A stretch of 64,000 bases of DNA from an uncultured Phycisphaerales bacterium (GTDB lineage: Bacteria; Planctomycetota; Phycisphaerae; Tepidisphaerales; Tepidisphaeraceae): the NCBI GenBank assembly GCA_963844715.1, contig CAWJPJ010000007.1, positions 544,001 to 608,000 on the forward strand, given 5' to 3'. Position 1 is the stretch's first letter; each line of letters opens with the position of its first letter. Under the pieces are notes generated by a model. It saw nothing but the letters and a program-made list of their open reading frames with translations, searched no databases and was not told where the DNA came from. Position numbers and translations under genes: made by a program. Below, one piece after another: positions 47,965 to 49,921 of the stretch.

Positions 47965-48150
47965 CTCACGAGCGGCTGTTCAAGCCCGTCCGGCGGTAAA
48001 CGCCGGGCGAACGGGAAGACGGTGAAATTCCGTCGCGGACGCGCCGCTGTAAAGGACACCATTTGCCTCGTCGGCAGTGAGCCACTGTTCCGCTTCACGC
48101 GGGATGGGAAGGCGCCGGAGAGAGTCCTGAGCCAGAAGACCGGCTCGTGG
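47965..48150 (+). ncRNA. Cobalamin (B12) riboswitch
   Basis: P1 CACGAGC/GCTCGTG. Core GGGAAGACGGTGAAATTCCGTCGCGGACGCGCCGCTGTAA, then GCCACTG, GGGAAGG and the B12 box GAGCCAGAAGACC. Confidence 0.93.
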
Positions 48151-48358
48151 GTTTGTGGATCGGGCGATTGTCGCCTGGTCAGATCGGCTTGGTCCTCGCG
48201 ATTCGGGACTGCCGGGCAAAGCACTCCACGAGCTTCCTCCCTGGCCGGCCATTGCGCCGCGCCCTGGCTCCTGCCCGTGCTGACGCCTTGGGCACCCCAA
48301 TCGCTGGATCAAGGTTTTTCAATTGTCAGCGCCGCGCGAATCGGCGCAGGAGAATTTC

Positions 48359-49921
48359 ATGTCTCGTCGCTACATTTTCGTGGCGGCCGCCGCACTCGGC
48401 GCCGCCCAGTCCGCTCGTGCCGCCACATTTGCCCAGTATCTACCAGGCTCCTATACGCAGGGCACCATCTACAACTCGGATGGCACCGTCAATACGTATG
48501 ATATGACCTTCAACGATCCGACTGTGGTCGCGGATCCGACCGTGGGTCCAACGGCCGGGCTCACCGACATCGATTTCGGTTTTCCCGAGATCATCAGCCC
48601 CTTCGATCCACCGGCTGATGCCGATCAGCTCGTCACCATCGGCAGCGGGGGACAGATCACCATCAAATTTCCCCAGTCAATCAACGTGTTGAAATCATCT
48701 CCGACCGTCGGCGTTTTCAGCGCCGCCGGCCTGATCGATAACGACTATCCCAACGGCGTCGCCACGAGCCCTGCGGCGGTTTTCACGCCGGAGTCCGCGG
48801 TCGTCAGCGTTAGCGCCGATGGGAACACGTGGGTGAGCCTCGGTTTGCAGAGTTTCGACATTCCCGAGAACTACTTCACCAACGCCGTAACCCCCTATGA
48901 TTTCCCGGCCCCCAGCCCCGCGGACGTCGCCGATTTCGGGATGCCCTACACCCAAGGGCTCGATTCCTTCGACGGCGCATCTTTCAGCACGATCCTGACC
49001 AAGCTGAACGGTTCCGCCGGTGGAACCTGGCTCGATCTATCCGGCACGGGACTCACTCAGATCAACTACATTCAATTCAGCGAACCCACCGGCGTGGTCC
49101 CCGATACAGACTTCCTGGCCCTCGAGGCGATCTCCGCGAACGACGCCGCGCTCCCCGAGCCCACTTCGTCCATCGCTTTATTCGCACTCGGCGGGCTGTT
49201 CCTGCGTCGATGGCGTCCGGCAAAGAATGCCCTGCTGCTCGCTCTGGCGTGCTGCCTGATGTTTACTTCCCTTTCCAAAGCCGCGCCGGTCGATTCGATT
49301 CAATTTTTCGATGGGAACGTCCTGAACATCCAGGGAACTTACGGCTCCGGTTCAGACTCCGCCTATCTCGTGGTCGATTTTCCCAGCGGCCCCGACTACG
49401 CATGGGAATTGAATTGGAACCCGGCCACAACCGTCAATGGTTGGCAAATGATGGAAGACATCGCCGGGCAATCGGTCCTTTCAACCAGCGGCACGCCCGG
49501 AACGACCAATGTCTCCAACCCCACCGGCGATCCCAATTTCACCGTAACCGCGGAATTTTTCTCGTCCTTCAACGAGCATCAAATCACCAATATGCAATAC
49601 GGTTCAACGGTCGGCGTGAATGATTGGGATTTCTATACAGGCTCCTACAACGCCGCCAACCTCAGCGCAACTGATCCTCAGGGTATAGCCTGGAAATCCG
49701 CCAGCGCGGGTATCGACGAAGCCAACTTAAGCAACGGCGAACTCATCGGATGGGTCGACATCTTCCCCCATCCGCCCAATCCGGTTGCCCCCGAAATCGC
49801 GGTCCCGGAGCCGGCCTCCGGCGCGATGCTGCTCATAATGGCTGCATTGCTTCTTTGCCGGCGAAGTTACTTCGCCATTTCCTTGGCTCGCGCCCGAACG
49901 TCGTCGATGGTTCCCGTATAA
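48359..49921 (+). CDS. B12-riboswitch-controlled secreted protein with two PEP-CTERM sorting signals and an internal signal peptide
   Basis: Signal peptide MSRR...ARA; LPEP-TM-RRWR at about 49151-49216; second signal [27 protein letters not shown] at about 49802-49864. Confidence 0.85.

What the first reader, a model, noticed from the sequence alone, without database searches (positions are those of the whole stretch)
47965..49921. Candidate PEP-CTERM-anchored vitamin B12 capture system with no transporter alongside
Seen: a clear cobalamin riboswitch has the double PEP-CTERM gene as its only downstream target, because convergent atpD follows. No btuB, btuFCD or cob genes occur in the window. 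Known: B12 riboswitches mostly regulate B12 uptake, B12 synthesis or B12-independent isozymes. Inference from recalled motif resemblance only: domain 1 ([31 protein letters not shown]...INYIQF) looks like the Bacteroides BtuH-type B12-binding domain. Domain 2 ([13 protein letters not shown]...YAWELNW...GWQMM) may be a second corrinoid-associated module. Together they suggest surface-displayed corrinoid scavengers in a planctomycete.
Basis: partly seen in the sequence, partly recalled or inferred. Interest (0 to 1): 0.7.

Follow-up and report, generated by a model that had tools for sequence, protein, structure and literature searches.

The report
Riboswitch-controlled double vitamin B12 binder
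A vitamin B12-sensing RNA switch in a planctomycete controls one exported protein made of two modules that each resemble a known B12-binding domain, pointing to a B12-scavenging system not yet described in this group of bacteria.

Summary
A full-length cobalamin riboswitch (RF00174, 85.3 bits) lies at 47973-48162. Its only downstream gene (48359-49921) encodes two PEP-CTERM modules in one frame and ends against convergent atpD.

- Module 1 (AF2 pLDDT 91) matches best the two solved BtuH-type B12-binding domains: Z 9.9 and 9.2, against 7.8-8.4 for carbohydrate-binding modules. The margin is modest.
- Module 2 (pLDDT 85) matches the cobalamin-binding beta domains of transcobalamin, intrinsic factor and haptocorrin, and a fifth chain, 3u7z. 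Z is 9.6-11.3; the next hit scores 6.6.
- Neither module is detectable by Pfam, NCBIfam or PDB sequence search.
- Of 80 loci in other genomes encoding module 1, 73 carry a cobalamin riboswitch upstream on the same strand. The other 7 lack upstream sequence.
- Module 2 accompanies module 1 in 39 of those 73 loci, fused in 10.

New here: 60 of the 73 loci also carry a prepilin-type H-X9-DG/DUF1559 gene. This genome's only other cobalamin riboswitch controls the orthologue of that gene.

The genome has MetH. MetE, CbiC and CbiB were not found (85% complete). B12 binding itself is untested.

The parts
47928..47955 (+). Promoter-like site TTGAAC-16 nt-TAGAAT, 18 nt upstream of the aptamer
   Evidence: Consensus scan, (9 of 12 matches; 2 sites found against 0.6 expected in shuffles). 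A consensus match only.
47973..48162 (+). Cobalamin riboswitch aptamer (RF00174)
   Evidence: 85.3 bits, E 1.3e-19, full model 1-189. Found again in the whole genome.
48163..48358 (+). Leader / expression platform, mechanism unresolved: conserved hairpins, a GGUUUUUC run at about 48315-48322, a GC hairpin at 48331-48349, and SD AGGAG at 48348-48352
   Evidence: Sequence. MFE fold, (z -0.79, not significant). 86% identical to the leader of the closest relative L003. No canonical terminator found by the scan.
48359..48421 (+). N-terminal signal peptide (aa 1-21, [21 protein letters not shown])
   Evidence: Read from the translation. Aligned with the N-termini of 33 homologues. Low pLDDT in the model.
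48422..49144 (+). Module 1 (aa 22-262): BtuH-like beta-sandwich, signature [11 protein letters not shown]
   Evidence: AF2 pLDDT 91.3. Fold searches. Family alignment A1. Riboswitch linkage in 73 of 80 loci.
49151..49216 (+). Internal PEP-CTERM signal 1 (aa 265-286: LPEP, hydrophobic helix, RRWR)
   Evidence: PF07589 and TIGR02595 each report 2 stretches. P266, E267 and P268 are invariant or nearly invariant in A1.
49217..49282 (+). Internal signal-peptide-like segment (aa 287-308, [22 protein letters not shown], then AP). The basic tail of PEP-CTERM 1 doubles as its n-region
   Evidence: Read from sequence. The same junction is conserved in fused homologues from Tepidisphaeraceae and Chthoniobacterales. 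Cleavage is inferred.
49283..49798 (+). Module 2 (aa 309-480): transcobalamin-beta/DUF4430-like fold
   Evidence: AF2 pLDDT 84.7 (core 93-97). VIA-align Z 11.3-9.6 to the TC, IF and HC beta domains and 3u7z, next 6.6. Foldseek ranks TC chains 1-6 (E 0.04-0.2). Family A2.
49802..49867 (+). PEP-CTERM signal 2 (aa 482-503: VPEP, helix, CRR)
49868..49921 (+). 17-aa tail ([18 protein letters not shown]) and stop codon, overlapping the 3' end of convergent atpD
   Evidence: The identical tail is present in homologue P0001 (76% id).
49867..51295 (-). Convergent atpD (F1 beta), which bounds the riboswitch-controlled unit. It is split into two ORFs by a frameshift near 50600
   Evidence: TIGR01039 model positions 217-462 (49870-50628) and 2-216 (50561-51295). 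Sequence.

Best explanation
This is a B12-repressed corrinoid-capture gene. When cobalamin is scarce, the RF00174 leader allows expression of one 520-aa precursor. The precursor is threaded through the membrane as signal peptide, module 1, PEP-CTERM helix, short basic cytoplasmic loop, second signal-like helix, module 2, PEP-CTERM helix. Processing by signal peptidase and exosortase would release or anchor two exported proteins. Module 1 is a BtuH-like beta-sandwich and module 2 is a transcobalamin-beta-like domain, and each is predicted to bind corrinoids outside the cytoplasm. They belong to a conserved riboswitch-controlled gene set of Planctomycetota and Verrucomicrobiota. That set also contains a prepilin-type H-X9-DG/DUF1559 protein, which in this genome sits behind the only other cobalamin riboswitch. 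Captured B12 would finally feed MetH in an organism that appears unable to make corrin or to bypass B12 with MetE. Shown by computation: the aptamer, the domain architecture, the fold similarities, the riboswitch co-occurrence and the genome content. Inferred: OFF-switch logic, ligand binding, cleavage, final location and hand-over.
For: Aptamer: 85.3 bits, full length. Only 2 RF00174 matches exist in the 4.55-Mb genome. Module 1: model pLDDT 91.3. BtuH-type domains are rank 1 and 2 of 48,161 representative chains (Z 9.9 and 9.2; 19% and 17% identity, against 8-12% for the CBMs at Z 7.5-7.8). They stay first in the second-look search, and Foldseek's only hit at E<=0.001 is 8blw_B. 8blw_B residues 393-660 are the BtuG1 'H-domain', and 7biz residues 314-593 are the B12-binding domain of BtuH2 (passages read: PMC10404256, PMC8941943). 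Module 2: the five top hits are transcobalamin, intrinsic factor, haptocorrin, the isolated TC-beta domain and 3u7z, at Z 11.3, 11.2, 10.6, 10.5 and 9.6 with rmsd 1.9-2.1; the next is 6.6. Isolated TC-beta retains cobalamin (PMC5599065 passages). Context: 73 of 80 loci encoding module-1 relatives have RF00174 upstream on the same strand, 71-2712 nt before the match. Module 2 is in 39 of these 73 loci and fused to module 1 in 10; 2 of the fusions have no internal anchor. A prepilin N_methyl/DUF1559 gene is in 60 of 73. For 9 of 9 such proteins from Phycisphaerae-type loci, the best hit in this genome is the gene behind riboswitch 2, at 47-77% identity over the full length. That gene passes TIGR02532 and TIGR04294. 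Genome: MetH present. MetE, CbiC and CbiB not found. Exosortases present. A Peripla_BP_2 + FecCD + ABC_tran importer is encoded at C5.
Against: No experiment shows binding. Neither module matches any Pfam or NCBIfam family beyond the PEP-CTERM motif. PF14478 (DUF4430) finds nothing in the genome even at E<=10. A profile of module 1 finds no BtuH among PDB sequences. Module 1's lead over PAPP-A (8.4) and chitobiase/CBM32 domains (7.8-8.1) is small, and that fold is a common carbohydrate-binding scaffold. The BtuH2 ligand-contact residues (Tyr510, Trp511, Trp577, His476, Asn399, Gln333) could not be mapped onto module 1. The expression platform is not resolved: no canonical terminator, and fold z -0.79. 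The genome is 85% complete, so the absences of MetE, CbiC and CbiB are provisional. No BtuB-type receptor is linked to the system, so the route across the outer membrane is unknown. What exosortase does to its substrates is not established, so 'surface-displayed' is an assumption.
Confidence: 0.7

Rival explanations
1. The modules do bind corrinoids but are not displayed on the cell surface. The PEP-CTERM helices keep them on the cytoplasmic membrane facing the periplasm, where they act as tethered substrate-binding or storage proteins for the BtuFCD-like ABC importer.
For: Each module is followed by a hydrophobic helix and a basic cluster that would anchor it in the inner membrane. A Peripla_BP_2/FecCD/ABC importer exists in the genome. 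No outer-membrane receptor is linked to the system.
Against: Exosortase genes are present, and the PEP motif is invariant in both families, which argues for processing rather than a passive anchor. BtuH, the closest structural relative of module 1, is surface-exposed in Bacteroides (PMC8941943 passages). The importer is not under a riboswitch.
Confidence: 0.15
2. Module 1 is an ordinary glycan-binding (CBM32 / F5-8 type C like) surface protein. The operon is a B12-repressed envelope or adhesion function that does not bind corrinoids.
For: Many CBM32, fucolectin and discoidin domains match module 1 at Z 7-8. Some type-A operon proteins carry dockerin-like repeats. The window holds a large exopolysaccharide glycosyltransferase cluster.
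Against: The two BtuH-type domains outrank all CBMs in three searches and have the highest sequence identity. Module 2 independently matches the B12-carrier beta domains by a wide margin. A riboswitch linkage of 73 of 80 across two phyla is the pattern of B12 uptake genes, and no B12-dependent enzyme that these proteins could replace is apparent.
Confidence: 0.1
3. The double PEP-CTERM ORF is an assembly or frameshift artefact that joins two separate genes.
For: This assembly carries likely indel errors: atpD is split at model position 216/217, and a TonB-receptor match holds a TGA.
Against: The same in-frame fusion, with the same PEP-helix-RRxR-signal junction, occurs in independent assemblies: P0001 (76% id, 521 aa), P0002, P0005 and L003, and in distant Chthoniobacterales loci L036, L039, L041, L044, L059 and L080.
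Confidence: 0.03

Closest known systems
BtuH (BtuH2, PDB 7BIZ; BtuG1 H-domain, PDB 8BLW) of Bacteroides thetaiotaomicron
   Same: Best structural match of module 1 (Z 9.9 and 9.1-9.2). Exported. Encoded behind a B12 riboswitch. An accessory binder rather than a transporter. Some relatives of module 1 carry N-terminal PKD or He_PIG Ig-like domains, as BtuH does (PMC8941943 passages).
   Different: No detectable sequence homology. Anchored by PEP-CTERM/exosortase signals instead of a lipoprotein signal. Not encoded with btuB, btuG or btuFCD. Found in Planctomycetota, Verrucomicrobiota and one Myxococcota MAG, whereas the BtuH paper reports homologues in gut Bacteroidetes and three Firmicutes. 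Ligand contacts not verified.
Beta domain of transcobalamin / intrinsic factor / haptocorrin, which Pfam models as DUF4430 (PF14478)
   Same: Module 2 superposes on it over 91-101 residues at rmsd 1.9-2.1 (Z 9.6-11.3). The isolated TC beta domain holds cobalamin by itself (PMC5599065 passages). DUF4430 is the C-terminal domain of TCN proteins (PMC4350170 passage).
   Different: No alpha (alpha6/alpha6 barrel) domain is present. PF14478 does not match. Module 2 is a bacterial protein with a PEP-CTERM anchor. That 3u7z belongs to DUF4430 is recalled, not tested here.
BtuJ1/BtuJ2 and other DUF4465 B12 binders (PDB 9FCT, 9I2L)
   Same: Exported, riboswitch-linked, beta-jellyroll corrinoid scavengers. 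DUF4465 is reported in some Planctomycetota (bioRxiv 10.1101/2025.07.01.662609 passage; PMC13398666 abstract and passages).
   Different: No Pfam family other than PEP-CTERM matched at E<=1. 9FCT and 9I2L are not among the listed fold hits, which does not exclude similarity.
Classical BtuB-BtuFCD uptake under RF00174 control
   Same: The same regulator and the same presumed purpose, B12 acquisition at low B12.
   Different: Here the riboswitch regulon (2 of 2 riboswitches in the genome) holds only binder-like and pilin-like proteins. The BtuFCD-like importer and two TonB-receptor-like genes are not riboswitch-linked.
PEP-CTERM/exosortase sorting system (TIGR02595, PF07589, PF09721)
   Same: Both modules end in PEP, a helix and a basic cluster. 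Exosortase genes are present.
   Different: The first signal is internal, and its basic tail is fused to a second signal-peptide-like segment, giving a two-cargo precursor. I found no description of this layout, but I ran no literature search aimed at it.

Membership tests
Cobalamin riboswitch (Rfam RF00174) | Covariance-model score above the gathering threshold over the full aptamer | tested here: met
   85.3 bits against 31.5, model positions 1-189 of 189, E 1.3e-19
Cobalamin riboswitch (Rfam RF00174) | Ligand-dependent control of the downstream gene | not testable with these tools
   Expression platform unresolved. The leader is 86% conserved with L003.
PEP-CTERM sorting domain (TIGR02595 / PF07589) | PEP motif, hydrophobic helix and basic cluster scoring above the cut-off | tested here: met
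   PF07589 24.4 bits (cut-off 20.7); TIGR02595 22.9 bits (cut-off 16); 2 stretches each
PEP-CTERM sorting domain (TIGR02595 / PF07589) | Signal located at the extreme C-terminus | tested here: not met
   Signal 1 is internal (aa 265-286 of 520). Signal 2 is followed by a 17-aa tail.
PEP-CTERM sorting domain (TIGR02595 / PF07589) | Exosortase encoded in the same genome | tested here: met
   PF09721 matches at C7:87159-87836 (146.5 bits) and C7:447607-448221 (123.2 bits)
BtuH-type B12-binding domain | Detectable sequence homology to BtuH1, BtuH2 or the BtuG1 H-domain | tested here: not met
   The profile of 34 module-1 sequences against all PDB sequences at E<=10 returns only an unrelated chain. 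No family hit in Pfam or NCBIfam.
BtuH-type B12-binding domain | Same fold as the BtuH2 C-terminal domain | tested here: met
   8blw_B Z 9.9 (rmsd 2.7, 145 aligned) and 7biz Z 9.1-9.2 are ranks 1-2. Foldseek E 4.6e-5. The margin over CBM-like hits is only 0.7-2 Z.
BtuH-type B12-binding domain | Conservation of the B12-contacting residues and the structural Ca site | not tested
   The tools gave no residue-level superposition. The BtuH2 contacts are listed in PMC8941943.
BtuH-type B12-binding domain | Encoded in a B12-riboswitch-controlled locus | tested here: met
   Window and 73 of 80 related loci
BtuH-type B12-binding domain | Lipoprotein encoded with btuB and btuG | tested here: not met
   Sec-type signal plus PEP-CTERM. 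No btuB in the window or the operons.
Transcobalamin beta domain / DUF4430 (PF14478) | Match to the Pfam model | tested here: not met
   No hit at E<=1. None in the whole genome at E<=10.
Transcobalamin beta domain / DUF4430 (PF14478) | Same fold as the cobalamin-binding beta domain | tested here: met
   2bb6_A 11.3, 2pmv_A 11.2, 4kkj_A 10.6, 5no0_A 10.5, 3u7z_B 9.6; the next hit is 6.6. Foldseek ranks TC chains first, but with E 0.04-0.2.
Transcobalamin beta domain / DUF4430 (PF14478) | Cobalamin binding | not testable with these tools
   Needs purified protein
DUF4465 (BtuJ-type, PF14717) | Match to the Pfam model or fold | tested here: inconclusive
   The Pfam-A scan at E<=1 returned no such family. 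Not among the listed fold hits, which does not exclude it.
Prepilin-type H-X9-DG / DUF1559 protein (partner gene behind riboswitch 2, G000:C5:338421-339275) | N-terminal cleavage/methylation motif and C-terminal H-X9-DG domain above the cut-offs | tested here: met
   TIGR02532 22.3 bits (cut-off 16.3) and TIGR04294 23.4 bits (cut-off 19). PF07963 22.8 bits (cut-off 21.2).

The most novel reading that the evidence does not exclude
PVC bacteria take up B12 by a route that does not use a TonB-dependent BtuB. Two exosortase-sorted binders, a BtuH-like module and a transcobalamin-beta-like module, clamp the corrinoid between them much as the alpha and beta domains of transcobalamin do. They pass it to a B12-regulated prepilin-type H-X9-DG/DUF1559 protein, whose pseudopilus carries it through the envelope. 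This would give the large DUF1559 expansions of Planctomycetes a first concrete role as ligand-specific uptake pilins. It would also mean that the beta domain of the animal B12 carriers has bacterial scavenger relatives.
Probability: 0.2. Interest if true: 0.9.

Novelty: new variant of a known kind. Interest (0 to 1): 0.75.

Why it matters
Vitamin B12 is made by few microbes and needed by most, so the way it is captured shapes communities. Accessory B12 binders (BtuG, BtuH, BtuJ) are so far characterised almost only in gut Bacteroides.

This finding points to an unannotated, riboswitch-controlled binder system in Planctomycetota and Verrucomicrobiota from soil, peat and water. It combines two binder folds, a different anchoring system and a pilin-like partner, and has no BtuB.

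It gives directly testable candidates for how these bacteria acquire B12. It offers two new small binder scaffolds. It also suggests a functional lead for DUF1559/H-X9-DG proteins, among the largest protein families of unknown function in these phyla.

Tried and rejected
- Sequence-family searches of both modules gave only the PEP-CTERM motif. This covers Pfam and NCBIfam at E<=1, a module-1 profile against PDB sequences at E<=10, and PF14478 over the whole genome at E<=10.
- Complex prediction of module 1 (aa 22-262) with module 2 (A2 residues 42-210) returned 'no answer' (score 0.00, controls not run). It says nothing for or against an interaction.
- Expression platform: the terminator scan found none in the leader, and the MFE fold is no better than shuffles (z -0.79). 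I therefore do not assign a transcriptional or translational mechanism.
- ESM Atlas look-alikes are leads only. Module 1 resembles unnamed clusters and a 'LIC_13355 family lipoprotein' cluster (0.93). For module 2 the nearest named cluster is DUF4430 (0.82).
- The search of earlier findings returned nothing for this genome.
- I considered that the divergent upstream gene (47288-47890) is CobC. It is a His_Phos_1 protein scoring 59 bits against a cut-off of 162.9 for TIGR03162, so this is not supported.
- I considered an assembly-artefact fusion and rejected it (see rivals).
- Literature searches found no paper describing this system. 'PEP-CTERM' + 'cobalamin riboswitch' gave 2 papers, which from their listings are about a denitrifying reactor. 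'DUF1559' + 'cobalamin' gave 0. 'cobalamin riboswitch' + 'prepilin' gave 0. 'Planctomycetes' + 'B12 riboswitch' + 'uptake' gave 2 papers: in PMC2667541 the term passages show only table rows and a reference, and the other (PMC2864571) I saw only in the search listing.
- 'DUF4430' + 'cobalamin' gave 2 papers, neither on bacterial binders.
- Subscription journals and bioRxiv supplements were not searchable.
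Full report
**1. What is in the sequence**

Rfam's cmscan over the whole window finds one cobalamin riboswitch aptamer, RF00174, at 47973-48162 on the + strand. It scores 85.3 bits against a gathering score of 31.5, with E 1.3e-19, covers model positions 1-189 of 189 and is not truncated.

A sigma-70-like TTGAAC-16-TAGAAT lies at 47928-47955, 18 nt upstream. The next open frame runs from 48323 (TTG) or 48359 (ATG) to the stop at 49919-49921. 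I take the ATG at 48359 as the start for two reasons. AGGAG lies 6 nt upstream, and 33 homologues begin at the equivalent MSRR/MFR.

On the opposite strand, atpD (TIGR01039) occupies 49867-51295 and overlaps the last 55 nt of the ORF. This gene is therefore the riboswitch's only possible target. Among 54 window ORFs of 180 aa or more, none matches a btu or cob family at E<=1e-10.

**2. Anatomy of the protein**

The 520-aa product reads as follows:
- signal peptide, aa 1-21;
- module 1, aa 22-262;
- LPEP, a hydrophobic helix and RRWR (PEP-CTERM signal 1), aa 265-286;
- [24 protein letters not shown], which looks like a second signal peptide whose n-region is the basic tail of the first PEP-CTERM, aa 287-308;
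- module 2, aa 309-480;
- VPEP, a helix and CRR (PEP-CTERM signal 2), aa 482-503;
- a 17-aa tail.

Pfam PF07589 (24.4 bits, cut-off 20.7) and TIGR02595 (22.9 bits, cut-off 16) each report two stretches. Nothing else matches at E<=1.

The layout is topologically consistent: out, in, out, in. It suggests one precursor that yields two exported, exosortase-sorted proteins. Cleavage is inferred, not shown. Exosortase genes are present in the genome (PF09721, 146.5 and 123.2 bits).

**3. The fusion is real**

A word-indexed search returned 75 relatives at E<=0.001. All 75 match module 1 and 18 match module 2 by BLASTP, one of the 18 only in its PEP-CTERM tail. Full-length two-module proteins occur in independent assemblies: P0001 (76% identity, 521 aa), P0002, P0005, and distant ones near 30-34% identity.

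The junction 'PEP, helix, RRxR, signal-like helix ending in AxA' is conserved in Tepidisphaeraceae and Chthoniobacterales versions. In two loci (L072, L076) the modules are joined directly, with one anchor only. This assembly does carry probable indel errors (atpD; section 10), but the fusion is not one of them.

**4. Module 1**

An alignment of 34 mostly single-module proteins of about 290 aa (A1) gave an AlphaFold2 model with mean pLDDT 91.3 and pTM 0.88.

Foldseek against the PDB has one match at E<=0.001. It is 8blw_B (E 4.6e-5), with 7biz_B at rank 5. The Foldseek-independent VIA-align search over 48,161 representative chains gives this ranking:
- 8blw_B first: Z 9.9, rmsd 2.7, 145 aligned, 19% identity, chain residues 393-660;
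- 7biz_B second: Z 9.2, 151 aligned, 17% identity, residues 314-593;
- then fucolectins and CBM32 modules at Z 7.8 and below, with 8-12% identity.

The second-look run keeps the same two on top (9.9, 9.1), followed by PAPP-A at 8.4 and a chitobiase C-terminal domain at 8.1.

From the papers (passages read), 7BIZ residues about 314-593 are the B12-binding globular domain of BtuH2 (PMC8941943). The C-terminal ~250 residues of BtuG1 in 8BLW are a BtuH-homologous 'H-domain' (PMC10404256).

So the only two solved BtuH-type domains are module 1's best matches. The margin is modest and the fold is a common sugar-binding sandwich. On its own this is a lead, not proof. A profile of A1 finds no BtuH among PDB sequences.

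**5. Module 2**

An exhaustive HMMER search of 1.84 billion representatives found 61 relatives at E<=0.001. Many are stand-alone PEP-CTERM proteins of about 200 aa. The alignment A2 (47 sequences) gave a model with mean pLDDT 84.7 and a core at 93-97.

VIA-align over 48,161 chains puts five chains on top:
- bovine transcobalamin 2bb6_A: Z 11.3, rmsd 2.0, residues 314-414;
- intrinsic factor 2pmv_A: Z 11.2;
- haptocorrin 4kkj_A: Z 10.6, 19% identity;
- the isolated human TC beta domain 5no0_A: Z 10.5;
- 3u7z_B: Z 9.6.

The next hit is 6.6 and is a helical artefact of the membrane helices. Foldseek agrees in ranking, with TC chains at ranks 1-6, but with weak E-values of 0.04-0.2.

The TC beta domain is Pfam's DUF4430 (PMC4350170 passage), and in isolation it keeps cobalamin bound (PMC5599065 passages). 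PF14478 itself does not match module 2. The relation is therefore structural only, but this match is clear.

**6. Comparative genomics: the decisive evidence**

A scan of one genome per species (GTDB) with A1 matched 125 stretches. Of these, 83 encode relatives and 80 loci were kept, each with up to 3 kb of flank. They come from Planctomycetota (Tepidisphaerales, Phycisphaerales, Pirellulales, Gemmataceae), Verrucomicrobiota (Chthoniobacterales and a Spartobacteria MAG), one Myxococcota MAG and one contig binned as Streptosporangiaceae.

Four Rfam runs over all 80 loci found RF00174 on the same strand upstream of the match in 73 (19 of 20, 19 of 20, 19 of 20 and 16 of 20). The distances are 71-2712 nt.

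The 7 loci without a riboswitch have little upstream sequence. In six, at most 513 nt lie before the match (L017, L035, L048, L066, L071, L078). In L082 the match lies inside a 912-aa ORF that starts at base 447.

This genome has only 2 RF00174 matches in 4.55 Mb, so such linkage cannot be chance.

HMM searches of the +-strand ORFs downstream of the riboswitch in those 73 loci find the following:
- module 1 in 73 of 73;
- the body of module 2 in 39 of 73;
- the two modules in one ORF in 10 of 73, and otherwise adjacent in either order.

**7. A conserved third partner**

Pfam scans of the remaining ORFs of 150 aa or more show a prepilin-type gene (PF07963 N_methyl and/or PF07596 DUF1559) in 60 of the 73 loci. 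The tally by call is:
- 47 of the 60 loci, at E<=1e-4;
- L009 and L051;
- L006, L055 and 9 of the 11 loci L069-L081.

Three of the 60 are weak, at E 3e-4 to 7e-4. The count is a lower bound, because flanks are short and some contigs end early.

Two arrangements recur. In one, the order is riboswitch, full-length DUF1559, module 2 (often with a dockerin-like repeat), module 1. About 20 loci, mostly Pirellulales, have this order. In the other, the order is riboswitch, module 1 (with or without module 2), a short prepilin-like gene of about 250-285 aa, MoxR AAA_3, DUF58. This order is found in Phycisphaerae and Verrucomicrobiota.

In this genome the second and only other cobalamin riboswitch (C5:338133-338351, 73.9 bits) is followed by a 285-aa prepilin-like gene and a MoxR ATPase. 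That gene passes TIGR02532 and TIGR04294 (H-X9-DG).

I took nine prepilin-like proteins from Phycisphaerae-type loci. For 9 of 9, the best tblastn hit in this genome is this very gene, at 47-77% identity over the full length and E 1e-66 to 1e-128. Other paralogues share only the first ~60 residues.

Both riboswitches of the genome therefore control pieces of one conserved gene set. 'No transporter alongside' is correct for the window, but the system does have a partner.

**8. Genome context**

- MetH is present (PF02965, 143 bits, in a 1034-aa frame).
- MetE (PF01717), CbiC (PF02570) and CbiB (PF03186) were not found. The genome is 85% complete, so these absences are provisional.
- A Peripla_BP_2 + FecCD + ABC_tran importer lies at C5:329165-331982. 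It is about 6 kb from riboswitch 2 but separated from it by unrelated genes.
- Two TonB-receptor-like matches lie elsewhere, one with an internal TGA.
- Module 1 is single-copy.
- Across 401 sampled genomes of the phylum, 20 (G000 included) have module 1 at E<=1e-10. That is 15 of 23 in the same class and 4 of 377 in other classes. Only 6 candidates per genome were scored, so these are minimum figures.

The picture fits a B12-dependent organism that must scavenge.

**9. Mechanism, and what is not known**

The likely sequence of events is as follows:
- at low B12 the leader permits expression;
- the precursor is exported and processed;
- the two modules bind corrinoids outside the cytoplasm;
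- the ligand is passed inward, possibly through the co-regulated pilin-like protein, to an inner-membrane importer and on to MetH.

The expression platform is unresolved. There is no canonical terminator and the fold is not better than shuffles. The 196-nt leader is nevertheless 86% identical to that of L003, whose protein is about 71% identical. The shared elements include a GGUUUUU run and a GC hairpin abutting the Shine-Dalgarno sequence.

Ligand binding, cleavage, final location and hand-over are all inferences. The BtuH2 contact residues could not be mapped.

**10. Novelty**

Riboswitch-linked accessory B12 binders are known in Bacteroides: BtuG, BtuH and BtuJ/DUF4465 (PMC8941943, PMC10404256, PMC13398666, bioRxiv 10.1101/2025.07.01.662609; passages or abstracts read). 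The following features were not found in the searchable literature:
- the pairing of a BtuH-like and a transcobalamin-beta-like module;
- their PEP-CTERM anchoring;
- the two-cargo precursor;
- the occurrence in PVC phyla;
- the co-regulated H-X9-DG prepilin-like partner.

I rate this as a new variant of a known kind. A pilin-based uptake route is the boldest reading not excluded.

In passing, atpD is split by a frameshift exactly at model position 216/217. An Acido-Lenti-1 RNA motif recurs in five of the related loci: about 1 kb downstream of module 1 in four Pirellulales-type loci, and about 120 nt upstream of the riboswitch in L041.

Noticed in passing
window 50540-50660 (- strand); ORFs 49867-50628 and 50558-51295: atpD (F1 ATP synthase beta) is split into two overlapping ORFs that cover TIGR01039 model positions 2-216 and 217-462. 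The break is a one-base frameshift inside the conserved NEPP...RLRVAL stretch. It is either an assembly indel error or a broken essential gene.
   Followed up: partly
G000:C5:338133-339275 (L002:1501-2646; L087:12134-13279): The genome's second cobalamin riboswitch (73.9 bits) controls a 285-aa prepilin-type H-X9-DG/DUF1559-like gene. A MoxR AAA_3 ATPase and TgpA/transglutaminase genes follow. The MoxR ORF (263 aa) lacks the AAA_lid_2 domain seen in its orthologues, so another frameshift is possible.
   Followed up: yes
L012:4664-4708, L025:4595-4639, L056:4635-4679, L075:4763-4807, L041:9-55: The Acido-Lenti-1 RNA motif (RF01687, 43-52 bits, gathering 37) recurs about 1 kb downstream of the module-1 gene in four Pirellulales-type loci, just upstream of a shikimate-dehydrogenase-like gene. 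It also occurs about 120 nt upstream of the riboswitch in one Chthoniobacterales locus.
   Followed up: no
window 47288-47890 (-): A histidine-phosphatase (His_Phos_1) gene is transcribed divergently from the riboswitch promoter region. Its best NCBIfam hit is alpha-ribazole phosphatase CobC, but far below the cut-off (59 against 162.9 bits), so a B12 link is not supported.
   Followed up: partly
window about 5600-31700 and 59172-61391: A large cluster of GT4 glycosyltransferases, an NDP-sugar dehydrogenase, a WcaF-like acetyltransferase and an FkbM methyltransferase. Several have sub-threshold hits to PEP-CTERM/XrtA-system glycosyltransferase models. A TPR protein has a sub-threshold PrsT hit. 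Together these look like an exopolysaccharide locus of the kind usually paired with exosortase systems.
   Followed up: no
L009:3758-5134; L024:1840-3678: Other fusion forms exist. In L009 one open frame holds module 2 followed by a prepilin N_methyl/DUF1559 segment. In L024 one ORF holds module 2, then module 1, the reverse order of the window.
   Followed up: partly
L011:1508-1739 and 2725-2930; L081:1004-1213 and 2225-2419: Two cobalamin riboswitches lie in tandem on the same strand within about 1.2 kb. Each precedes a separate gene of the same cluster.
   Followed up: no
G000:C5:329165-331982 (L087:3165-5982): A BtuFCD-like ABC importer (Peripla_BP_2, FecCD, ABC_tran) lies 6 kb upstream of riboswitch 2 but is not under a riboswitch. 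In L030 a Peripla_BP_2 gene lies about 2 kb downstream of the module-1 gene, on the same strand, after module-2 and prepilin-like genes.
   Followed up: partly
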